NCBI GenBank assembly: GCA_964457585.1
Contig: CAYWFU010000003.1
Location: forward strand, 5,500-69,499
Source: an uncultured bacterium
GTDB taxonomy: Bacteria; JACRDZ01
Reading direction: 5' to 3'
DNA: 64,000 bases
In this document: positions 3,024 through 58,821 of the stretch, piece after piece
How the letters are laid out: the number at the start of each line of letters is the position of its first letter
Position numbering within the stretch: position 1 is the stretch's first letter
Program-made: the position numbers and the translations under genes
The notes under the pieces: generated by a model
The model's database searches: none
What the model was told of the DNA's origin: nothing
The model's input: the letters and a program-made list of their open reading frames with translations, nothing else

Positions 3024-5108
3024 TTACATAGTAAAATTTTTAAGTTTATTTTCAATAAAAGACTTAAGCAATAAATAAGCGGGTGATGACAACGTATTAT
3101 CTTTTTCAATAATTGCAAACGCATCCCGCCTTGCTTTTGTCAGGATCTCCCCGTCTCTTAAAAGATTTGCAATTTTAAAATCTGGAATACCATGCTGTTT
3201 AGTACCCATAAATTCACCTGGACCGCGTATATTCAGGTCCTCTTCTGCAATACGGAAACCATCTGTTGTTTGAGTGAAAATTTTCAATCTCTGCACGCCT
3301 TCTTCACCAAGCATTTTGCCAGTTAATAGAATGCAATAAGATTTATATGAACCTCTGCCAATTCTGCCGCGCAGTTGATGAAGCTGTGAAAGCCCAAAAC
3401 GCTCTGCATGTTCAATAAGCATAATTGAAGCATTAGGAACATCTACTCCAACCTCAATTACAGTTGTAGATACAAGAATATCAATTTTTTTATTTTTAAA
3501 ATTATTCATTATATTATCTTTTTCTTCAGCTTTCATTCTGCCGTGTAAAAGTTGTACTTTTAATTCAGGAAAAATATCGCGAGTGAGGTGTTCAGCCATT
3601 TCTGTTGCAGCTTTTAAGTCTATTTTTTCTGATTCTTCGACTAAAGGATACACAATGTATACCTGCCTGCCTTCATTAATCTGCTTGCGGATAAAATCAT
3701 AAATTATATTTCTTTTTTCCTCTTTACTCCAGCGTGTTAAAGGCGGAATTCTGCCGGGAGGCAATTCATTTATTATAGAAACATCCATATCGCCATAAAG
3801 CGTTAAAGCAAGTGTTCTTGGTATTGGAGTAGCGGTCATAACTAAAATATCAGGATTATTTCCTTTTTGAACAAGTTTGCTTCTTTGTATCACGCCAAAT
3901 CTATGCTGTTCATCAATAATTACCAGCCCAAGTTTATGAAAATTAACTTTTTCCTGAATAAGAGCTTGAGTCCCAACTACTATATTTATTTCGCCATTTC
4001 CTATACTATTATAAAGTTTATCTCGTTCGCTTTGTTTTATTTTTCCAACCAGAAGAGCAGATTTCAATAGAGTATTGCTTAATAAATTTTTTAATGTCAT
4101 GTAATGCTGTTCAGCCAGGATTTCTGTGGGAGCCATCAATGCGCATTGATAACCATTTGCACAGCATACCAGCATTGCATATATTGCGATGATTGTTTTC
4201 CCTGAACCAACATCGCCCTGCAATAATCTAAGCATAGGCTGTGGGGACTCCATATCAGCAAAAATTTCATCAAGCACTTTTTTTTGAGCATTGGTAAGTT
4301 TGAATGGTAAACTTTGTGTAAACCCTGTAATTAAGGTTGAATGAACTGAAAAACTTATACCAGGTAAAATTTTTATCTCAACACGTCTTTTACCCAGAGC
4401 AAGTTCAAGTAAAAAAAATTCTTCATATACTAGCCGCTCACGCGCTTTTTTCAATGAAGACAAATTGGTTGGGAAATGTACTTCGTATAAAATTTTATTT
4501 AAAATCGGAAAAGAATATTTAGTCTTAATTTCTTCAGGAATAATATCCGGTATTTTGTCTGCATACTGATTTAATAACGAATAAATTGTTTTGCGCAGAA
4601 ATTTTTGAGTGATAGATTCAGTGAGCGGATAAATAGGTACAATTCGTCCAATATTAATATTTTCATCCGGATTTTCATCTTTTTCATTATTATCATCTAA
4701 AATTTCATATTCAGGTGAGTTTATCTGTAAACGGCTGAATTTATTATATTCCACTTTACCAACCAGAATTATATCAATGTCTTTTTTAAATATATTTTTA
4801 AGATAGGGTTGATTAAACCATATTGCTTCAATAAAACCTGAATTATCTCCAATAATAATTTTCAAAATATGTTTTATACTTCCGGATCGTGGAATATATT
4901 CACCAATACTTAAGACTTTTCCATGCACAACAGCCTTTTGTCCTATTGCAAGCTGTTTGATTGGAATAATATTAGACCGGTCATCATAATCGCGCGGGAA
5001 AAAATAAATAAGATCATAAACTGTATTGATATTCAGTTTTTGCAGTGTAAAAGCTCTTTTGGGGCCAACACCTTTAATATATTGAATAGGAGTATTTATA
5101 TCTGTCAT
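3024..5108 (-). CDS. recG: ATP-dependent DNA helicase RecG
   Basis: 694 aa. N-terminal wedge/OB region. Helicase motifs GDVGSGKT (Walker A) and DEQHRFG (DExH). C-terminal helicase domain. Overall architecture typical of RecG. Confidence 0.9.
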   Translation of the reverse strand: MTDINTPIQYIKGVGPKRAFTLQKLNINTVYDLIYFFPRDYDDRSNIIPIKQLAIGQKAVVHGKVLSIGEYIPRSGSIKHILKIIIGDNSGFIEAIWFNQPYLKNIFKKDIDIILVGKVEYNKFSRLQINSPEYEILDDNNEKDENPDENINIGRIVPIYPLTESITQKFLRKTIYSLLNQYADKIPDIIPEEIKTKYSFPILNKILYEVHFPTNLSSLKKARERLVYEEFFLLELALGKRRVEIKILPGISFSVHSTLITGFTQSLPFKLTNAQKKVLDEIFADMESPQPMLRLLQGDVGSGKTIIAIYAMLVCCANGYQCALMAPTEILAEQHYMTLKNLLSNTLLKSALLVGKIKQSERDKLYNSIGNGEINIVVGTQALIQEKVNFHKLGLVIIDEQHRFGVIQRSKLVQKGNNPDILVMTATPIPRTLALTLYGDMDVSIINELPPGRIPPLTRWSKEEKRNIIYDFIRKQINEGRQVYIVYPLVEESEKIDLKAATEMAEHLTRDIFPELKVQLLHGRMKAEEKDNIMNNFKNKKIDILVSTTVIEVGVDVPNASIMLIEHAERFGLSQLHQLRGRIGRGSYKSYCILLTGKMLGEEGVQRLKIFTQTTDGFRIAEEDLNIRGPGEFMGTKQHGIPDFKIANLLRDGEILTKARRDAFAIIEKDNTLSSPAYLLLKSFIENKLKNFTM

Positions 5109-5160
5109 ATTTTTTTAAGTTGACATATTTGGAATTTTTTTATATATTAAAAAAACATTT

Positions 5161-5247
5161 GGAGGGCTAGTCCTAACTGGCAAGGCAGCGGACTTGAAAT
5201 CCGCCGGGTGAAAGCCCTTGGGGGTTCAAATCCCTCGCCCTCCGCCA
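5161..5247 (+). tRNA. tRNA-Ser (anticodon UGA), class II with long variable arm, encoded CCA
   Basis: Acceptor GGAGGGC/GCCCTCC (7 bp). Anticodon arm GCGGA-CTTGAAA-TCCGC gives anticodon TGA. Long variable arm CGGGTGAAAGCCCTTG. T-arm GGGGG-TTCAAAT-CCCTC. Discriminator G followed by CCA. Closely parallels E. coli tRNA-Ser(UGA) as recalled. Confidence 0.85.
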
Positions 5248-5296
5248 AAAATATTATTCCAAATAAATGAAGAACCCTGTGTCAGAGCCACAGAGT

Positions 5297-5321
5297 ATCT
5301 TCTGTCTCTGATAGGAATATT
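5297..5321. repeat. Left copy of a 25-26 bp inverted repeat (ATCTTCTGTCTCTGATAGGAATATT)
   Basis: Exact reverse complement found at 6785-6809. Lies 50 bp downstream of tRNA-Ser. Confidence 0.8.
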
Positions 5322-6284
5322 TAATATTTATATTGTACCAACATCCCTGTATTAAAATGCAGAGTATTCTTGGCACTTCCAGATAATACCTAACACTATT
5401 CATAAAAGCAAGAAAAAATTGTATAACAAATGATATAACCTCGCTGGGGGATAAATTTTTATCTATAATAAATTTAAATAAATAGATATTGTACCTAAAT
5501 TATAAAACTCCGCGAATTGCATGTGTAAATGATATTTGGAAAATTCAAGCTCTTAGCTATTCGAACTTTTCTATTAAATTAAAAATAATCTAATAAAATA
5601 CGATCAATCGCTCAATGTAGAACAACTATTGCCATTCTATAGGTATTAGCATTTCTTCTATATGAACGAGAACTAGCTTCTATGGGTGTAGCTAGAAAGC
5701 TTGGGAAAATGAGTAAATGGGAGTTTATCGAAGGATTATCACTAAGTACAGCACCACAGAATTAAGTCTACAAAATCTATATCCCCGATAAACCATGTCG
5801 GGGATGACATGCAGGAGGTTGTGTCATTCTCGACATGTTTTATCGGGAATCCATGTTTTATTTTTTTAACTTTCTTTTTGTATACTTAATTCTGTGGAGC
5901 TGTACTAAGAGGGATAAAAAGACATTATGACCAAAAAGAACTTGAGGAAGATATAAAATATGCAAAAAGTAGTTAGCAATTCATCTCCAAATAAAGAACA
6001 CAACGAAGATGGCATATTTCGACCAATAAATACAATTAAAGGATTTAAAAAATATCAAAAAGTTATTATAACTTTAAAGAAATTCTTAAATAAAAAGATA
6101 AATATCTTCTTGTTTTAAAAGAATATAAAAAATAAAAATTTTAGACCCTAAATCTTTTTTAATGTATTTTATTAAGGAGGAAATATAGGGGTGGTGCGGA
6201 GAGTACATCTAACGACAAAAATGAAATTATTTAAAAGGAGCTTTAACAGTTGTGCAATGCACTAACTGCACCCCCTGATTATAC

Positions 6285-6719
6285 TCATGGTATTTTAGGG
6301 GGAGCAGACTTTATCTCTACATCTTTGTCATTTCCATGAATTTCTGTTTTTATCAAACGATCAGTTATTTCTTCAAGGTATGAATGTAATATTTTATTCA
6401 ATTCCTGAAATTCTGGCCATAAAATATCATCCACAAAAGTTTTTGGTACATTAACCATGACCGTAGTATATCTTTGTCCATTATATCTGTATGGTTTAAG
6501 ATTATATCTTCTCAGCAAAGCAATAAAAAGCTTTTTAGACCACATATCTGTCATTGTAAATTGATATTCAATAGCAGCATTATTATTTTGCAAAACTCTA
6601 AGTTTTTCACAAATACGCGTGCGCGCGTTTTCAGCAGCAATTTTTTCTCCAGGTGTAGTTGCTCCTGCGTACAGTGCTTCAATTTTTTGAAGTTTTTCAA
6701 TTAAATTTTTTTCATCCAT
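6285..6719 (-). CDS. Hypothetical protein; the N-terminus resembles the DUF2786 helix seen on plasmids and phages (weak)
   Basis: 144-aa ORF. N-terminal IEKLQKIEALYAGATTPGEKIAAENA resembles the DUF2786 consensus from memory only. Only sizeable ORF inside the inverted-repeat-flanked segment. Confidence 0.35.
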   Translation of the reverse strand: MDEKNLIEKLQKIEALYAGATTPGEKIAAENARTRICEKLRVLQNNNAAIEYQFTMTDMWSKKLFIALLRRYNLKPYRYNGQRYTTVMVNVPKTFVDDILWPEFQELNKILHSYLEEITDRLIKTEIHGNDKDVEIKSAPPKIP

Positions 6720-6784
6720 AATTGTATCCCGTATTATACACGTATTAATAGGAGATAAAGGAAAGGAGCTTTATAAATAATAAA

Positions 6785-6809
6785 ATATTCCTATCAGAGA
6801 CAGAAGATT
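6785..6809. repeat. Right copy of the 25-26 bp inverted repeat (AATATTCCTATCAGAGACAGAAGAT)
   Basis: Reverse complement of 5297-5321. Together they bracket about 1.5 kb. Confidence 0.8.
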
Positions 6810-6827
6810 AATTTTTTTCTGTAAAAA

Positions 6828-7724
6828 TTAATCTTTCATTCGTGTTGGATGATAATGCACATGAACACGCTGCAATAAATCAATTTTTTTATATAATGCA
6901 TGTTCAGCCTGTTGAGAGATTCTGTCGCCTTCGGTTACGCTTAGTGAACCGTCAATCCCAATTGTGATATTAACTACTAAATACGGTCCAAAACGGTGTG
7001 ACTGAATCTCTTCTACTTCTTGTATTTCAGGTATAAACTTCAATACCTGGTTAATTTGCTGGTCTAACACATAACCGGGGACAGTATCCATTAGATCATC
7101 AGATGATTCTCGCAAAATTTCAATTCCAGTTCGTAAAATTATAATTGCAACTAGCGCACCAGCTAAGGGATCTACCCAAAAATAACCTTCTCTGGATAAC
7201 AATATACCTATACTTGCAGCAGTGGCAGCAAAAATATCATTACGATGATCATAAGCAAGAGCGAATATTGCCGGGTTATTGGTTTTTTTACCAACTCGTT
7301 TAGTAAATATAGTTAATCCAATTTTTATTATAACAGTGAGAAGCGCGACAACTAATGCGCTGGTAGATGCATTAGTAAAATCACTTTTCCCAATCCATAT
7401 ATCATAAATTTTATTAATTGAATCCCAGAAAATTGCAACAGCAGTTGTTAAAACAAAAGATCCAACAACAACAGAAGAAATGCTTTCTAATTGACGATGT
7501 CCATAAGGGTGTTTCTCATCTGCCGGCTTATGAGCAAGCCCCATAAATATGCGTACAATAATATAATAAGCTACATCAGATGTTGAATTAATACCGTCAG
7601 CTAATAGCGCCGGACTGTGACCAATAACACCTATTACAGTTTTAACTGCAGCAAGTAAAATATTTACCCCCAGCCCTAAATTTATTGCAAAAACACTTGA
7701 TTTTTCTCGTTGTTCAGTTTGCAT
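6828..7724 (-). CDS. Cation diffusion facilitator (CDF) family divalent-metal efflux transporter
   Basis: Six predicted TM helices. Conserved CDF residues in TM2/TM5 (…HSPALLADGINSTSD…, …DHRNDIFAA…). C-terminal cytoplasmic domain. Confidence 0.8.
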   Translation of the reverse strand: MQTEQREKSSVFAINLGLGVNILLAAVKTVIGVIGHSPALLADGINSTSDVAYYIIVRIFMGLAHKPADEKHPYGHRQLESISSVVVGSFVLTTAVAIFWDSINKIYDIWIGKSDFTNASTSALVVALLTVIIKIGLTIFTKRVGKKTNNPAIFALAYDHRNDIFAATAASIGILLSREGYFWVDPLAGALVAIIILRTGIEILRESSDDLMDTVPGYVLDQQINQVLKFIPEIQEVEEIQSHRFGPYLVVNITIGIDGSLSVTEGDRISQQAEHALYKKIDLLQRVHVHYHPTRMKD

Positions 7725-8269
7725 TTTTCTCCAAATGGTTTTTTAATAAGCATTTTTTCTTCTGCAAGAGTTAGAAAACGCCATTTGCCTGATTCTACAT
7801 TCAGCTTTAAGTCACCGATTTGCATACGCTTTAATTCCAATACTTTTAAAGGTGTTCCGAATTTAGGATCTTTCAGCGCTCCAAAGAGGCGGCGGATGTG
7901 ACGGTTTTTCCCTTCGCCGAGTTCAATCTCAAGCCTTGTTTTATGTCCTGCATTCCCAATTCTTTTAACTCGTCGGACTTTTAACAATCCTTGTGGAGTT
8001 ATAACACCTTTAATTACTGAATCCATATGATCATCGGTAAAATAACCTCTGACCCATACTTCGTAAATTTTGTTACAATTTCCAGGTCTTGTAAGCGTGT
8101 CTAAAATTTTACCATCGGTTGTGAAAATAAGAAGACCTTTAGAATCCATGTCCAGACGGCCAATTGGTATCCATCCATCTGTTTTTGCCCATGCTGGCAG
8201 GAGCTCATAGACAGTTTTACGGTTTAATTCATCGGCGCATGTGACTACATAACCCTTTGGTTTATTCAT
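7682..8269 (-). CDS. rRNA pseudouridine synthase, RsuA/RluE-like, lacking an S4 domain
   Basis: Catalytic-Asp motif IGRLDMDSKGLLIFTTDG and KxYEVWV motif. Start placed at the internal Met (MNKPKGYVV). The long ORF would overlap the CDF gene by 43 nt. Confidence 0.75.
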   Translation of the reverse strand: MNKPKGYVVTCADELNRKTVYELLPAWAKTDGWIPIGRLDMDSKGLLIFTTDGKILDTLTRPGNCNKIYEVWVRGYFTDDHMDSVIKGVITPQGLLKVRRVKRIGNAGHKTRLEIELGEGKNRHIRRLFGALKDPKFGTPLKVLELKRMQIGDLKLNVESGKWRFLTLAEEKMLIKKPFGEKCKLNNEKNQVFLQ

Positions 8270-8317
8270 AAGCAGAAGTTTTTGAGAATTTTGTGGTGAT
8301 GTAGTGATGCCCATATT

Positions 8318-8871
8318 TATTTACCAATCAATAGGAAAATAGTCTTTTAGAAATTTACCGCACCAATGTACGCCTGATAGAATACCGTGAAAAAATGGGT
8401 CACACACCCGGGCTGCTCCATCAACTATATCCAGAGGAGGCTGAAAATCATGTATTTCCTGTTTTCGTGCAGAAAGAGCTATCGGGTCTTCATCCGTAAC
8501 CCAGCCTGTATCAACAGCATTCTAAAAATACCGTCTTTTGCAAGACCGCTTGCGGAGGTATGAGTAAGCATATTTAAAGCGGCTTTTGCCATATTTGTAT
8601 GAGGATGACGATCCCCTTTTTTAAAGCGATAAAATTTCCCTTCCATAGCAGTTACATTTACAATGTGTTTTTGTCCAGTGTTATCACGTCTCATCATTGG
8701 TATCAGCTTGTTGCATAATACAAAAGGTGCAATTGCATTAACCAGTTGAACTTCAAACATTTCAGATGTTTGTATATCTCCAATATTAACCAGGCTTTCA
8801 AGAACTGAAATACAATCTGTTATCTTCTCATTAAAATTAATAGTTTCAATATTTTTATCTAGGTTACTCAT
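8318..8871 (-). pseudogene. Short-chain dehydrogenase/reductase (SDR) remnant: N-terminally truncated and frameshifted
   Basis: The ORF encodes only the central SDR region (NAIAPF…[10 protein letters not shown]…NMAKAAL). A stop codon lies immediately upstream of the Met, so the Rossmann TGxxxGxG segment is absent. The C-terminal [11 protein letters not shown]…FPIDW continues in a different frame after a T5 run near 8520. Confidence 0.5.
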
Positions 8872-13353: not shown

Positions 13354-13746
13354 TCATCTTTTAAAAGTATTATTCTCTATAAACTCTATATCTTTGATTA
13401 GAGGTTTATTAAAATATCTATTCAATTGAGTGGTTATATCTTTTCTAAATTTAATTAGCTGTTTATACCATAAGGATTCATTTATTACCATAATTAATTT
13501 CCCATTTCTAAATGATACAGGATGCGCATGATTATATAAAGTTGTTCCCATTCCTTTCCATGCTTTTTTTATTTCATCTAATAGTATTACATTGTTTAAA
13601 TCTAAATTATCTAAAATATTTTTTGTAATATTTTGTAATTTTATATTTTTTTCTATCTTCTGTCTTCTGTCTTCTGCCTTCTGCCTTCTGTCCTCTGTAC
13701 TCTGTGCTCTGTCTTCTGTGCTCTGTCTTCTGTCTTTTATTCTCAT
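13354..13746 (-). CDS. DUF721/DciA-like protein with an N-terminal extension encoded by heptanucleotide tandem repeats
   Basis: C-terminal AWKGMGTTLYNHAHPVSFRNGKLIMVINESLWYKQLIKFRKDITTQLNRY matches the DUF721 (DciA) pattern from memory. The only ATG start lies upstream of the repeat tract, giving a DRRQSTE/DRRQKAE-type 7-aa periodic N-terminus. Confidence 0.55.
   Translation of the reverse strand: MRIKDRRQSTEDRAQSTEDRRQKAEDRRQKIEKNIKLQNITKNILDNLDLNNVILLDEIKKAWKGMGTTLYNHAHPVSFRNGKLIMVINESLWYKQLIKFRKDITTQLNRYFNKPLIKDIEFIENNTFKR
13654..13737. repeat. About 12 tandem copies of a 7-bp unit (TGTCTTC and variants; complement GAAGRCA) inside the 5' coding region
   Basis: Read directly: tgtcttc tgtcttc tgccttc tgccttc tgtcctc tgtactc tgtgctc tgtcttc tgtgctc tgtcttc tgtcttt. 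Unit length is not a multiple of 3. Confidence 0.8.
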
Positions 13747-13786
13747 CTCTCAACCCTCTTGTTTAAAAAGGTAATGTCAAAAATTA

Positions 13787-20447: not shown

Positions 20448-20638
20448 TTAATTAAATAGCTGTCAGCTATCAGCATTCAGCTTTCAGTTAAAAATACAAT
20501 TTCATATACCCAATATTAATTATCGCTCTTTTTTATCTTGAGTTTAATAAAAAATTATTAAGCGTTCAGTTATCAGGGATTATCTATCAGTTTATTGCTT
20601 TTTTTTAGCTGAATGCTGAAAGCTGATAGCTGAACGCT
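20448..20638. repeat. MITE/REP-like palindromic element built from NNTTCAG heptamers (arms AGCTGTCAGCTATCAGCATTCAGCTTTCAG / CTGAATGCTGAAAGCTGATAGCTGAACGCT)
   Basis: Arms at 20448-20477 and 20607-20638 are near reverse complements. There is an additional internal arm AGCGTTCAGTTATCAG at 20561-20576. Lies between mcsA and ilvE. Confidence 0.6.
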
Positions 20639-20653
20639 TGCTTAAATCATTAA

Positions 20654-21568: not shown

Positions 21569-21661
21569 AAAAAATTGCCTCCTTAATTTTGAGTAAAAGT
21601 ATATAACATTATACTAATTTTTTAATATTAAATCCAGTTTTTTTGCTTTATTAAAAAAATT

Positions 21662-21762
21662 AGGCACAAAGGCACAAAGTAGCAAAGGCACAAAGTTTAA
21701 AAGAAAACCAAAAACTCTATGCTTTGGGATTATTTTTACTTTGTGCCTTTGTTACTTTGTAA
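21662..21762. repeat. Imperfect long palindrome built from GGCACAAAG 9-mers; probable bidirectional terminator / structured element
   Basis: aggcacaaaggcacaaagtagcaaaggcacaaagt … actttgtgcctttgttactttgt. Sits between the lolD stop and the ilvE start. Confidence 0.45.
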
Positions 21763-21763
21763 C

Positions 21764-22441
21764 TTACTTTTCAATTTTCCCATCCAAAATTCTTATTATT
21801 CTATCAGTATTTTTGGCTAATGTTTCATTATGAGTTACAATAATAACTGTCTGCTTTTTTTGTCTTGCAAGATTAATTAATAATTCCTGAACTTTTTCGC
21901 TGTTTTCTCTGTCAAGATTTCCTGTTGGTTCATCTGCCAGAATAAATCTGGGTATTGTAACCATAGCTCTTGCAATAGCAACACGCTGTTGCTCTCCGCC
22001 TGAAAGCTCATTGGGTCTATGGCCCATTCTTGATTCCAATCCCAATTCTTTAAGAATTGAACTTGCTTTATCACGGGCGGTATCAAAATTTTCATGTCTG
22101 ATCAATAAAGGAATAGTCACGTTTTCAAGAGCAGTAAACTCAGGCAGTAAATAATGGAATTGAAAAATAAATCCAATATATTGATTTCTGAAATTAGATA
22201 ATTTTTTCCCGTTTTGGATATATATATTATTCTTTTCATATTTTACTTCACCTGAAGTTGGTTTGCTTAAACCTCCAATCATATGCAGAAGTGTGCTTTT
22301 CCCTGCGCCAGATGGACCAATAACGCCAATTATTTCAAATTCTTTTATTGTTAAATCAATACCTTTAATAATTTCAAGTTGATTTTCGCCGTCTTTAAAA
22401 CTTTTTTTAATATCAAATAATTCGATTAAGTTATTATTCAT
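21764..22441 (-). CDS. lolD: Lipoprotein-releasing system ATP-binding protein LolD (ABC ATPase)
   Basis: Walker [13 protein letters not shown] signature [14 protein letters not shown]. Walker [12 protein letters not shown]. Start at the internal Met MNNNLIELF, with an 8-nt overlap of the lolE stop. Confidence 0.8.
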
Positions 22442-29134: not shown

Positions 29135-29202
29135 TTTAAATTTCCTTTTGCATTACAAACATAAATATAGTTTACCATAAATAATAAAAGTTTCAAAATA
29201 TA

Positions 29203-29343
29203 CTCGGCAAGGTCATAAATTAGCATTTTTTCGGTGAGGATTGGGCATTGAGAGCAAGGCGCGAAGCCTTGCACTATTTCGAACCTGAGCAACGCAGCTA
29301 TCGATGTCCAAGACCAGCGCAAAAATGCTAATTTATGACCTTG
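29203..29343. other. GC-rich structured element: 29-bp inverted repeat (ACTCGGCAAGGTCATAAATTAGCATTTTT / AAAAATGCTAATTTATGACCTTGCCGAGT) flanking ~80 bp with an internal GCAAGGCGCGAAGCCTTGC hairpin
   Basis: Read directly. Conspicuously GC-rich island in AT-rich DNA. Includes a ~42-bp near-copy of the lptD start region (see findings). Confidence 0.45.
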
Positions 29344-30115
29344 CCGAGTATGACAAACTATTATCTATTATGCGATCAATTCCCAATTCCAGTAAATTAT
29401 CAGGTAAAGTATCATTTCTGAAAAATTGAGTATTTCCTTTAAGATAAATTTCCATTTTCAATGAAGGGTAATTAAGCTTAAAATTTTTGTCAAGACATTT
29501 ATGTCTACAATTTTCATCCCATTTTTTCTTATTATATTTAAAGAAACAGCTTTGAGTTGTGGTTAAATAACCAAAGGGATAATAAATTGATATTTTTAAA
29601 TTTTTAAAAAATAGGATTGGAGAAATTCCTCCTGGAAGATTATCAATTTCAATTCGATTGACATTATATTCTTTTAAAAATTTTCCCCATATCGGGGTAT
29701 TAATTCCAGAAATAGAAATGAATTTTTTTTCATTTTCTGATAATTTTTCAATTGGAGTGATTGGAAGACATCTTCTTTGTCTGGTTAGAAGTCTACCCAT
29801 TATAGGTATAAATTGAGGGAAATCCTGATGAATTAAATATAAGCTTCCCCAATCATTAATAACAATTTCACATGGGGTAGGGGATAAGACATTAAGAATT
29901 TTTTGTAATTTTTTAATCCCATTTTCAGTAAAATAAGGCGTTACACAGGTAAATTTGATTCCAAGATATTTGGTTTTTTCCTGTGCTTCTTTGAAGTTAT
30001 CCGGATCCGTGATATTCCATTGACAGAATTCTTCGCCAAAATAAACTCTATCAAAACCATCACAGTTTTTTTTAGAGATTTGATTTATTTTTGAAATGAA
30101 AATTGCTTTTTCCAT
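29333..30115 (-). CDS. Peptidase U32-like (collagenase-family TIM-barrel) protein, short form
   Basis: Pattern DRVYFGEEF…NF…E…KYLGIKFTCVTP…EIVINDWGSL parallels the U32 N-terminal consensus (DAVYLG…NFS…YVTLN…DAIIVQDLG) from memory. Confidence 0.4.
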   Translation of the reverse strand: MEKAIFISKINQISKKNCDGFDRVYFGEEFCQWNITDPDNFKEAQEKTKYLGIKFTCVTPYFTENGIKKLQKILNVLSPTPCEIVINDWGSLYLIHQDFPQFIPIMGRLLTRQRRCLPITPIEKLSENEKKFISISGINTPIWGKFLKEYNVNRIEIDNLPGGISPILFFKNLKISIYYPFGYLTTTQSCFFKYNKKKWDENCRHKCLDKNFKLNYPSLKMEIYLKGNTQFFRNDTLPDNLLELGIDRIIDNSLSYSARS

Positions 30116-30127: not shown

Positions 30128-32500
30128 TTAAAAGTTATAGTAAGTAGAATAAGGCGATAAACTTGGTTCTTTAAATTCAAATTTTTGCCCCGGTAAAGCT
30201 TTTAAGCTGATATTAAACCAAAATTCTTTGACCAAGATATTATCGTAAGGTGATAAACGCTGTCTTACACTGAATATTGCTTCCCAGCAATGCAAATCTC
30301 GTATTAATTCAATATCCTGTCTTTCACGTTCAAAATCTCTTATATGAAATTTATTAGTTATTTCAGCATTTTTAAAAGAATCTCTATAAATTACCGACCA
30401 GTTTTTTGTAAGTTTCAATTGAAGCGTCCCTCCGATTGATGCGAAACTACTGATTTTAGCAGGTTCTGGACCTATACCGTCAATATATACTTTATAATAT
30501 TTTGAATTAAGATTAAATGAAGCTTCTTTCCCTATTTTTTCTGTAAATTCAATAGACGTATCATTTAACTTGAATTTTTTTCTATGCCATTTTTGATATT
30601 CCGGTGTATATGAATCATATTCATCGAGATAAATATCCCAGTATAAATTACTGATAATTTTAATATTATCATCTTTTTTCACATAGATAGAGGTTTTTAA
30701 ATCACTAAATCTGGACCGATAATCACGATACGTTGTCTCATAAATACTTTTTCGCAATTCATAATTACTTTCAACTGAGATACCTGTACTTTGTTTAGTA
30801 TTTTCAAGATAAATAATATTATTTAATTTATTTTTAATTAAACCTTTATAAAGAAAATATTCAGTTCCATCCAGTTCATCAAGCTGTTTAGAATAATCAT
30901 GCGTTAATTCATTTCTAATATTTCGGGTTATATTTGTAACTAGCTTCAGTTGTGTCCCATATACACCAAAATTACGGTCATTAAGATTTACCGGATTATG
31001 ATCCGAATACCAGTTCTGATCATATTTTATTGTTGGACTGAGAGAAGTTCTTTGAAATGGATAAAAACTTGTCATTAATGCTTGAGATATGTTAAAGCTG
31101 CGGTAATAGTAATCATCAGCTTTAATATTCAAATAAGTATTTTCATAATACTTCTGGAAACGATTTGCATATAATAAATCAAGCTTATAATAAATTGGTT
31201 GTTCGAGTATTTCAATTATTGGTTTTCTTGCGAAATCAATTTTCATTTCAGGAGTTGCTTTATTGTCAATAAGAAATTCATTTTTGTTATTTTTATTCGG
31301 TTTCCAGCTTTTTAATTCTTGAAAAAATAAAGAAATATTATGAGTATCACTTGTTTTTAAAAGTGTAAAATTAATATTTTCTGTTGTACGTTTTCCCTGT
31401 ATATCTTCATAATCGAATAAAAAGTCAGGGTCGCTTAATCTGTCATAATTTAATTTGGCAAAAAAATTTGGATATAATTCATGAGTAAAATAAACTTGAG
31501 ATTTCCAGCGATCAATAGTATCTTCTCCCGCAGGATTATAAAATCTCCCTCTTGTAGTATCATACCATACAGGTTTTTGATCTATATCATAAAAATACAT
31601 AGTTCCTTTGCGTTTATCATCAACAAAGTAATTATATTCAAGTCCTCTTGCATAACCTCTGCGCTGCCAGAAATCCAATATAAAAGAACCATATGAATAT
31701 GGAGGCGCAGTATAATGCAATTTAGAATTATACCACCAGCCATATTTTGTGCTGTATCCCGGTTTAAAATAAAAAGGAGAATATTTTAATAAAAAGTAGT
31801 AATAAGGAGAATATAATACAGGTACATTCCCAACATAAAAAAATACATTAAAAGCAAGCACTTTATCATCTATATATACTATCATTTTTTTTGCCGTAAA
31901 ATTATAATGAGGATATTCCTTATCGCATGTAGTCATAATAATATTATTGTCAGCTTCAAAAGAATTTTTTTGATCTTTTTTAAATTTTGGTGTTTTAAAA
32001 TACCAGGGTTTGTTGTATATTTTACTGTTTAGAAAGGTTCCGGTGGATTTTTTTGTATTATAGTTTATTTTTTCACCTTTAAATATAGTTTCACCTTCTT
32101 TTAAATATACATTACCGGTGGCTTCAAGTTCATTTGTATCAATATTAAACTTAACTTCATCAGCATTAAGTATTTTTGACATCTGTTCTATTTTAACATT
32201 TCCTTTACCCTTAATAATTTTATCTGATGCAATATATTCCAGATAATCACCGGTTATTATAATTGCATTTGAACTTTCTGGTGATACAAATTGTTCAGTT
32301 AATCCAGATTGGGGAGGATATACTTGATATTGGATCAGACTACTTTCCCCAGTAATATTTTTGTCTGGATTTAATTGGCTAGGATCAGTCGAAATGGTTA
32401 TTTTTGTTGAGTCGGCTGAAAATGCAGAACCTGCAAAAGAGAAAAATATACAAGTAAGTAATATTGCTATCGATGTCCAAGACCGGCGGAAAAATCGCAA
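30128..32500 (-). CDS. lptD: LPS-assembly outer-membrane protein LptD (OstA family)
   Basis: Signal peptide. N-terminal OstA-like beta-jellyroll (…NADEVKFNIDTNELEATGNVYLKEGETIFKGEKINYN…). Large C-terminal beta-barrel ending …YYNF. Confidence 0.7.
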   Translation of the reverse strand: MRFFRRSWTSIAILLTCIFFSFAGSAFSADSTKITISTDPSQLNPDKNITGESSLIQYQVYPPQSGLTEQFVSPESSNAIIITGDYLEYIASDKIIKGKGNVKIEQMSKILNADEVKFNIDTNELEATGNVYLKEGETIFKGEKINYNTKKSTGTFLNSKIYNKPWYFKTPKFKKDQKNSFEADNNIIMTTCDKEYPHYNFTAKKMIVYIDDKVLAFNVFFYVGNVPVLYSPYYYFLLKYSPFYFKPGYSTKYGWWYNSKLHYTAPPYSYGSFILDFWQRRGYARGLEYNYFVDDKRKGTMYFYDIDQKPVWYDTTRGRFYNPAGEDTIDRWKSQVYFTHELYPNFFAKLNYDRLSDPDFLFDYEDIQGKRTTENINFTLLKTSDTHNISLFFQELKSWKPNKNNKNEFLIDNKATPEMKIDFARKPIIEILEQPIYYKLDLLYANRFQKYYENTYLNIKADDYYYRSFNISQALMTSFYPFQRTSLSPTIKYDQNWYSDHNPVNLNDRNFGVYGTQLKLVTNITRNIRNELTHDYSKQLDELDGTEYFLYKGLIKNKLNNIIYLENTKQSTGISVESNYELRKSIYETTYRDYRSRFSDLKTSIYVKKDDNIKIISNLYWDIYLDEYDSYTPEYQKWHRKKFKLNDTSIEFTEKIGKEASFNLNSKYYKVYIDGIGPEPAKISSFASIGGTLQLKLTKNWSVIYRDSFKNAEITNKFHIRDFERERQDIELIRDLHCWEAIFSVRQRLSPYDNILVKEFWFNISLKALPGQKFEFKEPSLSPYSTYYNF

Positions 32501-32530
32501 TTTATGCCCCCTCTGGGTATATCATGTATA

Positions 32531-34743: not shown

Positions 34744-34757
34744 ATTACATAATTAGC

Positions 34758-34785
34758 TGTGGAGACGCAAAATTTTGCGTCTCTA
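34758..34785. promoter_or_regulatory. 28-bp near-perfect palindrome GTGGAGACGCAAAATTTTGCGTCTCTAC in the ferredoxin 5' leader (copy 1 of 2)
   Basis: Differs at one position from the perfect palindrome at 47961-47988. Lies between the putative promoter and the RBS (AAAGGAGG), 25 nt before the ATG. Confidence 0.55.
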
Positions 34786-34810
34786 CTTTCATAAAAGGAG
34801 GTGTAAAATA

Positions 34811-38507: not shown

Positions 38508-38682
38508 GCGTTCAGACGTCAGTTTTCAGCTATCAGTTTTAAAGATATAAAATTCAAAAAAGCTGGTTCCCTGTTACTAATTTCCATTTTTTGGTCATAA
38601 GTTACTGGCAATTAATCACTAACTAGTAGTATTAGTTTTTATAATGATTTAGCTGAATGCTGACTGCTGATAGCTGAATGCT
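38507..38682. repeat. MITE/REP-like element of the same family as 20448-20638 (arms AGCGTTCAGACGTCAGTTTTCAGCTATCAG / AGCTGAATGCTGACTGCTGATAGCTGAATGCT), inserted between trpB and trpA
   Basis: Arms at 38507-38536 and 38651-38682 are imperfect reverse complements around a ~110-bp AT-rich core. The first arm abuts the trpB stop codon. Confidence 0.6.
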
Positions 38683-38707
38683 TACAGTAAAGAATAGGAA
38701 TAAAATT

Positions 38708-39505: not shown

Positions 39506-39599
39506 AGAGGCATAGGAGGCATATAGGGCATAGGGGGACGTTGTTTAAAATGTTTAATTTGCATTGAAGTAAACAATAAAATATGTTAGGATTCTAAAT

Positions 39600-40604
39600 A
39601 TGCCAAGACAAGCAAGAATAGATTATCCTGGAACACTCCATCATGTAATCGGGCGGGGAATTGAAAGAAGCAGTATTTTCAAGGAAGAAAAAGATAAAAA
39701 GGAATTTCTTCGCCGGGTGAAATTAAATTTAGATAAAAGCAGCATGCAATGTTATGCCTGGTGCATAATGGATAACCATTTTCATTTGCTGCTCGTTACG
39801 GGAGAAACAAAATTATCCGAGTTTATGAGACGTCTTTTAACAGGATATGCTGTTTATTATAATAAAGTCCATAAAAGAGTTGGGCATCTTTTTGAGAACA
39901 GATATAAATCAATAGTATGTGACACAGATGAATATTTGTTACCATTAATAAGATACATACATTTAAATCCTGTAAAAGTCGGAGCAATTCAAATTGAAGA
40001 ATTATCTAAATATAAGTGGACAGGCTATAGTGAAATCGTCGGAAAGTTAGAGAAAAGTAATGTGATTGAAGTAAATGAAGTGTTAAGTTATTTTGGTAAA
40101 ACAAAAGAAAAAGCCGAAAGAGCATATGTTAAATTTGTTAATGAGGGGATTGGATTAAATGAAAATTTTGAAGGTGGTGGATTAATAAGAAGTGCCGGTG
40201 GATTGCAAGAGGCGCTGAAGAAAAATAAAGAAGATAAAGAGATGTTTGATGAAAGAATATTGGGAAGAGGTGGATTTGTCGAAGAAATTTTAAAAAAAAC
40301 AAAAAAAGAAGAAAAGAATAAATCAAAAATACAAGATATAAATAAAATTATTGATATCGTAGGAAAATATTATAAAAAAGACCGGAAAGAAATACTAAAC
40401 AGCCGGATACAAGGAGTGAGAGAAGCAAGGGATTTGATTATTTATCTAGGTTCAATTTATATAGGAAAAAGCTTAACAGAGCTTGGTGAAATGTTGGGGA
40501 TAAAAAGGGCTGCGGCAAGTATCGCAATGTATCGAGGAAAAAACTTGGTAAAAAAAGAAGGTGCAGCAGAGGATATATTAAACATTTTAAACAACGTCCC
40601 GTAA
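39600..40604 (+). CDS. IS200/IS605-type Y1 (HuH) transposase-like protein with a C-terminal DnaA-C-like HTH; RAYT-related
   Basis: N-terminal MPRQARIDYPGTLHHVIGRG…; HuH motif NHFHLLL; catalytic Tyr region (LTGYAVYYN). C-terminal …LTELGEMLGIKRAAASIAMYRGKN resembles the DnaA C-terminal HTH. Single gene without obvious flanking TIRs. Confidence 0.65.
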   Translation: MPRQARIDYPGTLHHVIGRGIERSSIFKEEKDKKEFLRRVKLNLDKSSMQCYAWCIMDNHFHLLLVTGETKLSEFMRRLLTGYAVYYNKVHKRVGHLFENRYKSIVCDTDEYLLPLIRYIHLNPVKVGAIQIEELSKYKWTGYSEIVGKLEKSNVIEVNEVLSYFGKTKEKAERAYVKFVNEGIGLNENFEGGGLIRSAGGLQEALKKNKEDKEMFDERILGRGGFVEEILKKTKKEEKNKSKIQDINKIIDIVGKYYKKDRKEILNSRIQGVREARDLIIYLGSIYIGKSLTELGEMLGIKRAAASIAMYRGKNLVKKEGAAEDILNILNNVP

Positions 40605-40621: not shown

Positions 40622-43600
40622 CTATCTGCTGCTAACATGCGAAAGCCCCATCACATTCCCTGCTAAATCCTGTACTTTTGTAATTGAAAGATCTATTGGT
40701 TGAAGAAGTTTCCCGTATCTTGGAATAACAGGTGTAATATAAGTATCATTTTTTTTATTTGTTGTAGTAAAAGTCCCTTCTTCTGTCAAAAGAACATTTT
40801 CACCTTTCACATCGGATACAACAATTGATGGAATGAAATTATTATCTAAAGATTCATTAAATATTATCTTTATCTGTGCAGCAAGATTTATATCATCTTC
40901 AGGAAAAATCGATTTAACAATTACCGGTTGTGTTTTATCCAGATATACCTTAATATTTGAATTTTCTATTTTCCCATCTTTATATTTCACAGAAATATAA
41001 AGATATTTTTCACCTTGAGTACCTTTTAATGTATATCTGACTTTTTCTGAATATTTAGACCATTTACCGCTTTTATATCCGGAATCTTCACTTATTTTTA
41101 TTTCATCAGCATCCTTAATATTAAAAAGTAAAGTAATATCCTCTCTTTTAGTATAGTCACCTTCCTTAACTTTAATTTTTTTCTGACGCGGATCTTCTTC
41201 TCCTGCATAAAATAGTAGTTTACTGAAAGTATCCATTTTATTACCTGTTGGATCTATAACCTGATCCATAACAAAAATAATGGCTCCTTTCATACTTTCA
41301 TCTAAAATAATTTCAGGGGTAATATATGTATCATTTTTGTTCTTATCCGAGGCAAAAGTGCCTTCATTTGCTATTAAATAATTTAAATGACTGCTGCTCA
41401 TGAGTACTATAGCCGGTTTTTCAGACTTTACTTCCTCGCTAAAATGGATGGTAATATTAAATGGTTTATTAAATTCGACTTTAGGAGGAAAATCAAACGC
41501 AGTAATAACAGGTTTATTTCTATCGAGTGTAACTTCTACCCTTTGAGGTTTGGATATATTTTTATTTTCGTCTTCAAATTTAAAGTATATTTTTTTTACT
41601 CCATCTTCTTGTGATAAATTAAATTCAAGGTCAGATGCATAATCTTCCCATTTAGTATTTTTAAAATCTACATCTTCTGACAGCATCATTTTTAATGCTC
41701 CAACTACAGAAATTGAAAAATTGATTTTTGGATTACGTACAAAAAGCCCTTCTTTAACAGCAATTTGCGTGGCAACAGGAGCATAAGTATCGAAATTAAA
41801 GCTTTTTTTCATATCCAGTTCCATTTCATTTTTTGCAAGATCAATGGCATTTTTTACTATAATTGTGATTGCTCCGCCCATGCTTTCATCAAATATAACA
41901 GGAGGTGAAGCAAAAGTATCATTTGGGAAGCGGATTGTCATAAAGCTTCCTTCACCAGACATTTCAGGACTTTTTTCACCAGTACTTACCATGCTTATTT
42001 CAGGGAAATAAGTTGTATCAAGAGATTCGTTGAATTGGACTTTAATTTGAGAACTTTCCCCAACTTTAATTGGGCTTGGATAAAAATAATTTATTATTTT
42101 TGGCGGTATTTTGTCAATGAAAACTGTAATTTTCTGCACTTCTGAAATATAACCAATTTTATCGCGGAATTGTATATATATATCTTTTTCCCCTTCTCCG
42201 CTTGATAATTTAAATCCATGTTCTTTTTTCAAAATCTCCCATTTGGCATTTTTAAAATTTTTATCTTCACTTAAAATCATTTCAACATTTTTACGATCTT
42301 TTTGTTCGTCAAATAAAAGAATAATATCATTTTTAATTGTATAATTTCCTCCTTCAACCTTAACATGCGGTGAAGGCGGAACTATATCATATCGGAATAA
42401 ATTATTCATAGTAGTTGGATCCATTATATTACCTGCTGTATCTTTAACTTCTTCAACCAGTACAGAGATATATCCTTCAAGTTTTTCAGGTAAAATAATC
42501 GGTGAAGTTATATATGTATCATTCATTAGTGTTGTTGATGAAATATTTCCATCTGGTAAAGTTAATGTTTCTTTCGACATGTTTTTTAATGTTATTTTCG
42601 GTTTCACAGAAGTATTAATTGGTTCATTAAATAGGAGCTTTATTTTGAAAGGTTCTTTTATTTTTGGAATATTGTATATCTGGTTTATTATTCGCGGAGG
42701 AGTTTTATCCAGATTTACAGCAAATTGACTTGTTGCTGAAAGCACACCGCTTTTACTACGTGTACGAAAATAAATATTCTTTTTCCCTTCGGTGGAAGAT
42801 AGATTAATTTTTTTCTCATTAGAGAATGGTTCAAAATTTTTCCCTTGAAAATTTGGATCCTCACCAATAATCATATTATCAGCTTCAGGTGCTTTTATAA
42901 GCAAAGTAATCTCCTGATTTGAAATATAATCACCTTCCTTAACTAAAAGAGCAGTATTCAAAATAAATTTACCCACAAAAATTTTATCCATTTTATTTCC
43001 GGTCAGGTCAAGAACGTTTTCAATATAAATTTCAATTTCCCCTGTCATATTTTCATCAAGAGTAATATCAGGAGTAATATATGTATCATTTTCTGCTCTG
43101 ACAAAAGAAAATCTGCCAGGCGCAATCTCTATCTCGTTTCCCTTTTCTTTTTCTTCTTCTTTCTGCCTTTTGCCTTCTGCCTTCTGCCTTTTGTTCACCA
43201 GAGTTACCTTTGGCAATATAAAAGGATTGCATGGTTCACTGAATATAAATGAAATTTGGAAATGAGTTGTAATATTTGCAGGATTTTGATATTCAGATGT
43301 TAACAATATTGGAGGTATTGTATCTGTTACAATACTCAAATTCCTTAAGACAACGGGTGATTCCATGATTGGTGCAAGAATTAATTTTCCTAAAGCATTG
43401 TCGTCAAAGTAATCATAAACAAATTTACTGATTATTACAGTATTCAATACTCCCCACCAGTTTTTAGAAACATCCAGATTTTGGTCGAATTTTGATAATT
43501 TAAAAGCATATTCTTTATTATTTAATATATTATTATTTTTTACAAGAAACGGACTATAAAATTCTTCACAATAAATACCCGTCATGTTTTCAGTGATATT

Positions 43601-47895: not shown

Positions 47896-47960
47896 ATATA
47901 TAATATAAAAAAATTATTAATTGAAACCTTTTAATAGAAAATAAAGTATACTAAAATATA

Positions 47961-47988
47961 GTAGAGACGCAAAATTTTGCGTCTCTAC
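47961..47988. promoter_or_regulatory. Perfect 28-bp palindrome GTAGAGACGCAAAATTTTGCGTCTCTAC, 16 nt upstream of the NHL-protein ATG (copy 2 of 2)
   Basis: Perfect dyad (14+14). Followed by RBS GAGGGAG and the ATG at 48005. Same sequence (1 mismatch) at 34758-34785. Confidence 0.6.
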
Positions 47989-48004
47989 AGTATGAGGGAG
48001 AATA

Positions 48005-54684: not shown

Positions 54685-54757
54685 GAAGATCTGGATTTTT
54701 GACATTCTTGTTATTCAGGTGTCATAATTTAGTCATACTTTATATTGTACTGTAGTT

Positions 54758-54773
54758 GCTCGATTTATCGAGC
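54758..54773 (+). terminator. Probable intrinsic terminator hairpin GCTCGATTTATCGAGC followed by TTAATTTTAATTT
   Basis: 6-bp stem, 4-nt loop, T-rich tail. Nearly identical 35-bp module recurs at 58810-58845. Confidence 0.5.
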
Positions 54774-54957
54774 TTAATTTTAATTTAAAAAAAAATAAAC
54801 TTTTTTGAAACGCATTTGTATATTGCTAATGAAGGTACAAAAAAAGATAAAGCCTGCATTGAGAAGTTTTATGAGATGTAGATGTAGTGGCTGGATTACT
54901 ATCCAGCTCTCAAATAAGCAATGTTTTTAACTATTCAAGGTTTGCGGGAGAATTGCA

Positions 54958-58749: not shown

Positions 58750-58821
58750 AATTATAATTTAAGTACAGGAAATTGAAAAAGCCCAATGAATTGGGCAACT
58801 ACAATATATTGTAATGTAGTT

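What the first reader, a model, noticed from the sequence alone, without database searches (positions are those of the whole stretch)
5297..6809. 1.5-kb segment bracketed by perfect 25-bp inverted repeats immediately 3' of tRNA-Ser
Seen: ATCTTCTGTCTCTGATAGGAATATT at 5297-5321 and its exact reverse complement at 6785-6809, starting 50 bp after the tRNA. Inside there is no transposase or integrase, only a 144-aa ORF (possible DUF2786-like), a 52-aa ORF and a heavily palindromic non-coding core. Established: tRNA 3' ends are preferred integration sites, and TIR-bounded non-autonomous elements (MITEs or decayed IS) lack their own transposase. Inference: a degraded IS or non-autonomous element, or alternatively an invertible segment.
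Basis: partly seen in the sequence, partly recalled or inferred. Interest (0 to 1): 0.55.

Follow-up and report, generated by a model that had tools for sequence, protein, structure and literature searches.

The report
Transposase-less cassette bounded by inverted repeats
A 1.5-kb patchwork of DNA next to a tRNA gene is framed by near-perfect 36/37-bp inverted repeats and is most likely a small hitch-hiking mobile cassette with no transposase of its own, which is ordinary for bacteria and cannot be proven with the data at hand.

Summary
The inverted repeat is real and not chance.

The interior is a patchwork:
- a relic of a UPF0175/DUF3368 toxin-antitoxin pair, truncated on both sides;
- one intact 144-aa gene with promoter-like and terminator-like signals of its own.

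The 144-aa gene is not DUF2786. It belongs to a widespread unannotated family that sits in unrelated contexts across phyla. On sphingomonad plasmids it lies inside recombinase-in-trio (RIT) elements.

No transposase, integrase or invertase lies in the segment or within about 10 kb. There is no target-site duplication. The repeat has no other copy in the window or in three public collections. No relative is close enough for a synteny test.

One indirect clue points to more copies. Contigs from the source sequencing run break exactly at both edges of the right 37-mer, as expected if that 37-mer also occurs elsewhere in the sample.

Best reading (about 0.45): a transposase-less, MIC-like cassette or its relic. 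Inversion is not supported. Interest is low to moderate.

The parts
5161..5247 (+). tRNA-Ser (anticodon UGA); it reads towards the segment
   Evidence: ARAGORN; Rfam tRNA, 44.8 bits
5277..5293 (+). Short terminator-like hairpin just before the left repeat arm
   Evidence: Consensus scan. In the RNA fold of 5245-5345, flank bases pair with the first ~18 nt of the arm, z -2.6
5297..5332 (+). Left repeat arm, 36 nt; the perfect core is 5297-5322
5333..5640 (.). About 300 bp with no recognisable coding or RNA content
   Evidence: All six frames are full of stops; no Rfam match
5641..5741 (+). UPF0175 antitoxin pseudogene, proximal part; the N-terminal ~30 codons are lost or scrambled
   Evidence: tblastn: 84% identity to antitoxin residues 30-61 of L078, and 78% DNA identity; in-frame stops upstream
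5742..5746 (.). CTAAG, left copy of the 5-bp target-site duplication of the nested MITE
   Evidence: Exact 5-bp direct repeat; longer lengths do not match
5747..5904 (.). Nested 158-bp MITE-like element. Its TIRs are about 29 nt, or 34 nt at 91% if the near-palindromic CTAAG is counted. The whole element folds into one long hairpin.
   Evidence: the repeat finder I1. DNA fold -43.7 kcal/mol, z -10.9. Removing the element plus one CTAAG restores the reading frame, and the product hits Pfam UPF0175 at E 8.4e-13 and has homologs at up to 85% identity over its full length
5905..5909 (.). CTAAG, right copy of the target-site duplication
5905..5976 (+). UPF0175 antitoxin pseudogene, distal part (…RGIKRHYDQKELEEDIKYAKSS, then the stop codon)
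5960..5989 (+). First 10 codons (MQKVVSNSSP) of a DUF3368 PIN-like toxin gene, overlapping the end of the antitoxin. Homology stops at 5988.
   Evidence: In L078-L082 the homologous antitoxin is followed by a DUF3368 gene with a 20-nt overlap. That toxin starts MPRVVSNSSP. DNA identity of 80% ends at 5988
6235..6278 (-). Terminator-like hairpin followed by a U-run, just after the stop codon of the 144-aa gene
   Evidence: RNA fold of 6200-6295 on the minus strand, z -3.3
6285..6719 (-). Intact 144-aa gene of an unannotated, widely distributed family. Its 5' end faces the right repeat arm.
   Evidence: 762 homologs at 53-69% identity across phyla; 32 invariant columns; no Pfam, NCBIfam, PHROG or PADLOC family; AF2 model with pLDDT 78.6 and no PDB fold match
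6721..6748 (-). Promoter-like site upstream of the 144-aa gene (TTAATA, 16 nt, TACAAT)
   Evidence: Consensus scan, 9 of 12; weak evidence
6772..6808 (-). Right repeat arm, 37 nt; the perfect core is 6783-6808
   Evidence: Logan contigs end at 6801 and start at 6779, which leaves exactly 6772-6808 as an unreported node
6804..6835 (-). Perfect 13-bp A+T-rich hairpin that overlaps the stop codon of the cation-efflux gene and the last 5 nt of the right arm
   Evidence: the repeat finder I19; RNA fold z -3.4
6828..7724 (-). Cation diffusion facilitator gene; it reads towards the segment
   Evidence: Pfam Cation_efflux at 7.9e-40 and ZT_dimer

Best explanation
The 1,512-bp segment (5297-6808) is a small transposase-less cassette, or the relic of one. 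Its 36/37-bp repeats are the terminal inverted repeats of an IS-type element family present in this genome, and a transposase encoded elsewhere would have to move it in trans. That makes it a 'mobile insertion cassette' (MIC) type of non-autonomous element. It lies between two genes that converge on it, tRNA-Ser and a cation-efflux gene, just past the end of each. Its content is accessory DNA: one intact, self-contained 144-aa gene from a horizontally wandering family; a dead UPF0175/DUF3368 toxin-antitoxin pair; and a later MITE insertion into the antitoxin relic. Shown: the repeats, the cargo, the absence of any recombinase, and the nested MITE. Inferred: that the repeats are transposase-binding ends, that a cognate transposase exists, and that the segment arrived as one unit.
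For: 1. The repeat is far beyond chance and has sharp edges: 26 nt perfect, 36/37 nt overall, and similarity stops abruptly on both sides.
2. No transposase or recombinase is inside, and no remnant of one.
3. The cargo is typical accessory DNA. The toxin-antitoxin relic is truncated at both ends and carries a MITE with an exact 5-bp TSD.
4. Homologs of the 144-aa gene sit in unrelated contexts in different phyla. They also occur on 25 alphaproteobacterial plasmids. In three sphingomonad plasmids they lie inside RIT elements bounded by 33-93-nt inverted repeats.
5. Two contigs of the source run SRR12113406 match the window exactly: 5880-6801 and 6779-8810. Logan uses k=31 and does not report contigs under 150 bp. 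The missing k-mers therefore form a 37-nt node, 6772-6808, with branches on both sides. That node is exactly the right arm, which implies at least one more copy of the 37-mer in other flanks in that sample. The other end of the first contig (5880 = 5910 minus 30) coincides in the same way with the MITE boundary.
6. The genome carries other TIR-type small elements: a 152-bp MITE-like element at 29200-29351, and a Y1-transposase gene framed by a perfect 24-bp IR at 39535-40600.
Against: There is no target-site duplication at any offset from -3 to +5 or length from 2 to 12. The only match is the self-complementary dinucleotide AT, which cannot be told apart from the repeat itself. No further copy exists in the 64-kb window. 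The 25-mer is absent from 185,579 species-representative genomes and from JGI metagenomes, and its 19-nt core is absent from IMG/VR. No cognate transposase is known, and the ends resemble no IS family I can name. No empty site could be examined. The interior looks like several separate events rather than one designed cassette. Other members of the 144-aa family are not framed by inverted repeats. The evidence for a third copy is indirect.
Confidence: 0.45

Rival explanations
1. The two arms are independent copies of a short (~37-nt) dispersed repeat, or solo ends left by separate IS events. Each landed just downstream of a gene, and the 1.4 kb between them is simply a variable intergenic 'junkyard' rather than a unit.
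For: Both arms lie in the same orientation relative to the gene that reads into them, directly after a hairpin at that gene's 3' end. There is no TSD around the pair. The inferred third copy shares only the 37-mer, not the interior or the flanks. The interior is a patchwork of unrelated relics.
Against: No solitary copy exists anywhere in 64 kb holding roughly 50 genes, so this is not an abundant REP-like repeat. The 37-mer has no internal dyad symmetry of the REP type (sequence read directly). Two copies in inverted orientation 1.5 kb apart is what element ends look like.
Confidence: 0.25
2. The segment is invertible (an inverton). A site-specific recombinase flips it between the repeats and so changes which internal strand the converging flanking transcripts read.
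For: A perfect 26-bp inverted repeat 1.46 kb apart has the right geometry. Both flanking genes transcribe into the segment.
Against: No serine or tyrosine recombinase lies in the segment or in the genes checked from position 1 to about 20.4 kb. An inversion would make the right-flank contig break at 6783, but it starts at 6779 and runs on unbroken. An inversion also cannot explain the break at 6801. No switchable promoter/gene pair is evident.
Confidence: 0.07
3. The segment is a cassette moved by tyrosine recombinases acting in trans, either a stripped-down RIT-type element or a Xer/dif-module-like unit, with the repeats as recombinase sites. This would explain the missing TSD.
For: The 144-aa family lies inside RIT elements framed by inverted repeats in three plasmids. 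It sits directly upstream of a tyrosine recombinase in L004 and near integrase genes on an Agrobacterium Ti plasmid. RIT ends are reported as 34 bp (PMC10214605), close to 36/37. Plasmid dif modules often carry toxin-antitoxin genes (own knowledge).
Against: No recombinase and no relic of one in the window. The arms show no sequence similarity to the RIT ends found here (read directly). The gene's orientation relative to the nearest end is opposite to that in RITs. By eye the arm fits the XerC-spacer-XerD consensus poorly, and the two arms differ exactly where a XerD arm would lie. The partner gene found in RITs (orf215) is absent.
Confidence: 0.08
4. Non-mobile origin: a local inverted duplication, for example by template switching or gene conversion, with no function.
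For: No TSD, no second pair, no transposase.
Against: The unit has sharp edges, and a further identical 37-mer is inferred in other flanks. Such duplications are rare.
Confidence: 0.1

Closest known systems
Mobile insertion cassettes (MICs), e.g. MIC231 of Bacillus cereus and the TnXax1-derived MICs of Xanthomonas
   Same: Passenger genes framed by IS-type inverted repeats, with no transposase of their own and a size of one to a few kb. The definition is in PMC4337579.
   Different: Known MICs share their ends with an identified IS or transposon and have target-site duplications (5 bp in Xanthomonas). Here no cognate element is known and there is no TSD.
MITEs
   Same: Non-autonomous, TIR-bounded, no transposase. 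A textbook example (158 bp, 5-bp TSD, hairpin-forming) is nested inside this very segment.
   Different: The outer element is 1.5 kb, carries an intact gene, does not fold back on itself beyond the 37-nt ends, and lacks a TSD.
Recombinase-in-trio (RIT) elements
   Same: Terminal inverted repeats of about 34 bp. In sphingomonad plasmids, homologs of the 144-aa gene lie within the RIT ends.
   Different: The three defining tyrosine recombinase genes are absent, the end sequences are unrelated, and the gene's orientation relative to the nearest end is opposite.
Invertible DNA segments (invertons, Hin/Fim/Mpi-type switches)
   Same: An inverted repeat pair bracketing a segment of about a kb.
   Different: No recombinase nearby, no switchable promoter/gene logic, and no sign of the inverted junctions in the source assembly graph.
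REP-associated tyrosine transposase loci (a RAYT gene framed by inverted REP copies)
   Same: A gene framed by a perfect inverted repeat. A RAYT-like example lies in the same window at 39535-40600.
   Different: The repeat sequences are unrelated, the 37-mer is not itself palindromic, and there is no Y1 transposase in the segment.

Membership tests
Mobile insertion cassette (MIC) | Terminal inverted repeats at both ends | tested here: met
   26 nt perfect, 36/37 nt overall
Mobile insertion cassette (MIC) | Passenger gene(s) and no transposase inside | tested here: met
   One intact 144-aa gene plus toxin-antitoxin relics; no transposase or recombinase signal
Mobile insertion cassette (MIC) | Ends shared with a cognate autonomous IS or transposon | not testable with these tools
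   No other copy in the window or in public collections. The only evidence is an inferred extra 37-mer in the source run.
Mobile insertion cassette (MIC) | Target-site duplication flanking the ends | tested here: not met
   None at offsets -3 to +5 and lengths 2-12, apart from the ambiguous palindromic AT
Mobile insertion cassette (MIC) | Presence/absence polymorphism or several copies (evidence of movement) | not testable with these tools
   The closest recG relatives are at most 56% identical (best full-length 52%) and not syntenic. Cation-efflux relatives are at most 72% identical and not syntenic.
MITE (for the nested 158-bp element) | Small size, TIRs, TSD, no coding capacity | tested here: met
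   158 bp, TIRs of about 29 nt, exact 5-bp CTAAG duplication, and precise in-silico excision restores a UPF0175 reading frame
MITE (for the nested 158-bp element) | Several copies in the genome | tested here: inconclusive
   No second copy in the window. A Logan contig ends exactly 30 nt inside the element's right boundary, as expected for a repeat.
Inverton / invertible segment | Site-specific recombinase (invertase) encoded nearby | tested here: not met
   Pfam on the neighbouring genes and tblastn with tyrosine recombinases found none. Serine invertases were covered only through Pfam on the ORFs scanned.
Inverton / invertible segment | Both orientations present in sequencing reads | tested here: inconclusive
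   Reads are not available. The contig ends of the source run do not fit inversion junctions.
RIT element | Three adjacent tyrosine recombinase genes | tested here: not met
   tblastn with RitA, RitB and RitC from L045 against the window: best E 0.032, far from the segment
RIT element | Terminal inverted repeats of about 34 bp | tested here: met
   The length fits (36/37 nt), but the sequence is unrelated to the RIT ends seen in L043, L045 and L046
tRNA-targeted integrative island | Integrase gene, and direct repeats that duplicate the tRNA 3' end | tested here: not met
   No integrase. No direct repeat of the tRNA 3' end in 5000-7100. The repeats are inverted and start 50 nt beyond the tRNA.
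DUF2786 (for the 144-aa protein) | Match to the Pfam DUF2786 model | tested here: not met
   No hit at E<=1 for the protein, and none at E<=0.01 for 31 family members
UPF0175/DUF3368 toxin-antitoxin pair (for the relic) | UPF0175 antitoxin followed by an overlapping DUF3368 PIN-like toxin gene | tested here: met
   The reconstructed antitoxin hits Pfam UPF0175 at 8.4e-13. The homologous pairs L078-L082 have the same overlap. The toxin start MQKVVSNSSP matches MPRVVSNSSP. Both genes are dead here.

The most novel reading that the evidence does not exclude
The segment is a recombinase-less derivative of a tyrosine-recombinase transposon of the RIT kind. It would be moved in trans without a target duplication, with the conserved 144-aa protein acting as an accessory factor of such elements. 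That would make it the first 'mini-RIT' cassette, and it would give a function to a large unannotated protein family.
Probability: 0.05. Interest if true: 0.55.

Novelty: new member of a known kind. Interest (0 to 1): 0.3.

Why it matters
If the cassette reading is right, this is one more example of how small transposase-less units move accessory genes into the gaps between housekeeping genes. In this case the host is a poorly sampled, low-G+C lineage with no close sequenced relative. The useful by-products are more concrete. One is a clean MITE insertion with a reconstructable empty site. The other is the observation that a large protein family of at least 762 members, with no Pfam model, travels with mobile DNA, including RIT elements. 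Nothing here challenges current understanding.

Tried and rejected
1. Other copies of the repeat. I searched for the exact 25-mer in species-representative genomes and JGI metagenomes, for a 19-mer core in IMG/VR, and for a 15-mer in all fetched loci. All came back empty.
2. Loose searches of the window with both arms, the MITE and the whole segment. Only the known pairs appeared.
3. Synteny in relatives. recG relatives in genomes and metagenomes are at most 56% identical (best full-length 52%), and none of the ten genome-derived loci scanned for tRNAs carries tRNA-Ser directly upstream of recG. Cation-efflux relatives are at most 72% identical and sit in other contexts.
4. The source contig. 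Exact look-ups returned only two short Logan contigs. recG is not on record, and cluster look-ups gave no names.
5. Function of the 144-aa protein. Pfam, NCBIfam, PHROGs, PADLOC, a PDB profile search and an AlphaFold model searched against PDB with Foldseek gave nothing significant.
6. Inverted repeats or conserved upstream DNA around homologs of the 144-aa gene in other genomes. None, apart from the RIT ends.
7. RNA families in the segment. Only chance miRNA-like hits on the MITE hairpin.
8. DNA similarity of the segment to plasmids, and the MITE end in viral contigs. None.
9. A dif/Xer-site reading of the arm, compared by eye with the E. coli and B. subtilis dif consensus from memory. The fit is poor and the two arms differ where the XerD half would be. 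Rejected.
10. A terminator-motif reading, in which the arm is a common 3'-end signal. Rejected because no other gene in 64 kb has it.

Full report
**Observation**

The 25-mer is present at 5297-5321 on the plus strand and at 6784-6808 on the minus strand. These are the only two matches in 64 kb even with three mismatches allowed, and none occurred in 100 shuffles.

The perfect match is 26 nt. Ungapped it runs 29 nt at 97%. With one gap it runs 36/37 nt, 5297-5332 against 6772-6808. Similarity stops abruptly at both the outer and inner edges, so the repeat is a discrete unit of about 37 nt.

tRNA-Ser(UGA) is at 5161-5247.

**Surroundings**

recG (3024-5108, minus strand) and tRNA-Ser lie to the left. 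A cation diffusion facilitator gene (6828-7724, minus strand) and a pseudouridine synthase gene lie to the right.

tRNA-Ser and the efflux gene both read into the segment. Each arm sits directly after a hairpin at the 3' end of the gene that reads into it.

The scanned genes from the start of the window to about 20.4 kb are housekeeping: radC, recG, haem synthesis, cytochrome c assembly, DciA, and an McsA/McsB-like pair. None is a recombinase.

**What is inside**

1. A toxin-antitoxin relic.
   - I noticed that the sequences on either side of the 'palindromic core' read like the two halves of a UPF0175 antitoxin.
   - Removing 163 nt (the core plus one CTAAG) restores one reading frame. Its product matches Pfam UPF0175 at E 8.4e-13 and has 85-aa homologs at up to 85% identity over its whole length.
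   - In relatives this antitoxin is followed by a DUF3368 PIN-like toxin gene that overlaps it by 20 nt.
   - The window has the same overlap, and the ORF there starts MQKVVSNSSP against MPRVVSNSSP in the relative. Homology ends after 10 codons, and DNA identity is confined to 5641-5734 and 5908-5988.
   - The antitoxin's first ~30 codons are also lost or scrambled.

2. The 'palindromic core'.
   - It is a 158-bp MITE-like element (5747-5904) with TIRs of about 29 nt.
   - It has an exact 5-bp CTAAG duplication.
   - It folds into a single long hairpin, z -10.9.

3. The 144-aa gene (6285-6719, minus strand).
   - It is intact, with a promoter-like site and a terminator-like hairpin of its own.
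   - It is not DUF2786. No Pfam model matches it or any of 31 relatives, and NCBIfam, PHROGs and PADLOC give nothing.
   - A reasonably confident structure model (pLDDT 78.6) has no PDB neighbour.
   - The family is large, with 762 hits, and strikingly conserved: 53-69% identity among proteins labelled cyanobacterial, deltaproteobacterial, actinobacterial and planctomycetal.

4. About 300 bp on each side of the toxin-antitoxin relic have no recognisable content.

**Where the 144-aa family lives**

Its neighbours differ from genome to genome:
- after an SNF2/DUF3670 helicase gene;
- between fabD and a Xer-like recombinase gene followed by hslVU;
- beside a Uma2 gene;
- near ybeY.

It also occurs on 25 alphaproteobacterial plasmids.

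In three sphingomonad plasmids it lies, together with a 215-aa partner, inside recombinase-in-trio elements. The strongest inverted repeat in each locus (33 nt at 97%, 91 nt at 100%, 93 nt at 83%) brackets exactly the three recombinase genes plus these two ORFs. RIT elements are described as three tyrosine recombinases with 34-bp terminal inverted repeats (PMC10214605).

On Bradyrhizobium and Roseomonas plasmids the gene abuts the ends of IS66-type transposase genes. On an Agrobacterium Ti plasmid it follows integrase-like genes.

This is the pattern of a gene that travels with mobile DNA.

Outside the RITs its relatives are not framed by inverted repeats, and their upstream DNA is not conserved. 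The window holds no RIT gene or relic, and no partner ORF.

**Is the repeat multi-copy?**

Direct searches failed. There is no other copy in the window, none in 185,579 species-representative genomes, none in JGI metagenomes, and none in IMG/VR.

There is one indirect clue.
- Exact look-ups of two window proteins returned contigs from run SRR12113406 that are identical to the window. They span 5880-6801 and 6779-8810.
- Logan assemblies use 31-mers, each 31-mer occurs once, and contigs under 150 bp are not reported (PMC12424806).
- The two contigs overlap by 23 nt rather than 30. The seven 31-mers starting at 6772-6778 must therefore form a separate 37-nt node, 6772-6808, with branches at both ends. 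That node is exactly the right arm.
- The simplest cause is at least one more identical 37-mer in different flanks in that sample.
- The left arm cannot be that copy, because it shares only 26 exact bases.
- The first contig's other end (5880 = 5910 minus 30) coincides in the same way with the outer edge of the MITE plus its CTAAG.
- Three of the four contig ends coincide to the base with repeat edges, which makes a coverage accident unlikely.
- This remains an inference from contig ends, not a sighting of the third copy.

**Inversion**

If the segment flipped in an appreciable fraction of cells, the right-flank contig should break at 6783, where the two arms first differ. It starts at 6779 and continues unbroken. 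The break at 6801 would also stay unexplained. No invertase is nearby. I regard inversion as unsupported, though rare inversion cannot be excluded without reads.

**Target-site duplication and integration**

The outer pair has no flanking direct repeat at any plausible offset or length. The one exception is the self-complementary AT, which is equally part of the repeat.

There is no duplicated tRNA 3' end and no integrase, so a tRNA-targeted island is not supported.

**Relatives**

- The best recG relatives are at most 56% identical (best full-length 52%) in genomes and at most 50% in metagenomes. None of the ten genome-derived loci scanned for tRNAs has tRNA-Ser directly upstream of recG.
- The best efflux-gene relatives are 72% identical and sit in other contexts.
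- The lineage is poorly sampled. One antitoxin homolog is labelled Nitrospirota, but that says little about the host.

**Interpretation**

The anatomy is discrete 36/37-nt inverted ends, no recombinase, accessory cargo, a probable further copy of the end sequence, and a genome that holds other small TIR elements.

This fits best a transposase-less cassette of the MIC type. MICs are defined as passenger genes framed by IS-related inverted repeats and mobilised by a cognate transposase in trans (PMC4337579).

Two defining features are unmet or untestable: there is no target duplication, and no cognate element is known. So I file it as 'works like a MIC' at about 0.45, not as an established member.

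The main rival, at 0.25, is that the two arms are independent copies of a short dispersed repeat or solo IS ends, and the interior is just a variable intergenic dump. Smaller shares go to:
- a tyrosine-recombinase or Xer-type cassette, 0.08;
- an inverton, 0.07;
- a non-mobile inverted duplication, 0.10.

**Verdict**

In kind this is ordinary, a new member of the family of non-autonomous TIR-bounded elements, and interest is low to moderate.

The firmest new facts are the nested MITE with its reconstructable empty site, the identity of the toxin-antitoxin relic, and the link between the unannotated 144-aa family and mobile DNA, including RIT elements.

Noticed in passing
window 39535-40600: A 334-aa gene (39600-40604, plus strand) with an IS200-like Y1 transposase domain and a DnaA-C helix-turn-helix is framed by a perfect 24-bp inverted repeat (39535-39558 / 40577-40600). 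This is the layout of a REP-associated tyrosine transposase locus. It is a second 'gene bracketed by perfect IRs' in the window, with an unrelated repeat sequence.
   Followed up: partly
window 29200-29351 and 32466-32520: A 152-bp MITE-like element with 37-nt terminal inverted repeats (95%) lies between two genes. A partial copy, 55 nt at 80%, lies 3.2 kb away.
   Followed up: partly
L043 1987-6998; L045 1024-5560; L046 989-5611 (sphingomonad plasmids): RIT elements here carry two extra conserved ORFs inside their inverted repeats: a protein of about 215 aa with no Pfam match, and a homolog of the window's 144-aa protein. These may be unrecognised accessory genes of this RIT subgroup.
   Followed up: partly
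window 6285-6719 (protein family): The family has at least 762 members and 32 invariant columns among 31 diverse sequences. Some members carry a C-terminal lysine/arginine-rich tail. It has no Pfam, NCBIfam, PHROG or PADLOC model and no PDB fold match.
   Followed up: partly
window 34757-34787 and 47960-47990: Two copies of a 28-nt perfect palindrome, GTAGAGACGCAAAATTTTGCGTCTCTAC, lie 13 kb apart. It may be a shared terminator or another small repeat family.
   Followed up: no
window 13633-13754, 21656-21778, 20604-20639, 38648-38683, 43129-43208: Several tracts of tandem heptanucleotide repeats (CTTCTGY, GGCACAAAG-like, GCTGAAx). The first shares 12 nt with the start of the repeat arm, probably by chance. 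At least the first and the last of these tracts fall inside long ORFs.
   Followed up: no
window ~49800-63600: Many repeats of a TGTCATGATCCTCATGG-like motif, which encodes the haem-binding CXXCH motif. This indicates a large cluster of multihaem cytochrome genes.
   Followed up: no
window 8479-8871: A 130-aa ORF matches only the middle (positions ~88-174) of short-chain dehydrogenase models, so it is probably a truncated gene. One Logan contig of the source run also ends inside it, at 8810.
   Followed up: no
window 40622-45430: A 1,602-aa ORF with internal repeats of about 590 bp (four copies of a 108-nt block at 41230-43092).
   Followed up: no
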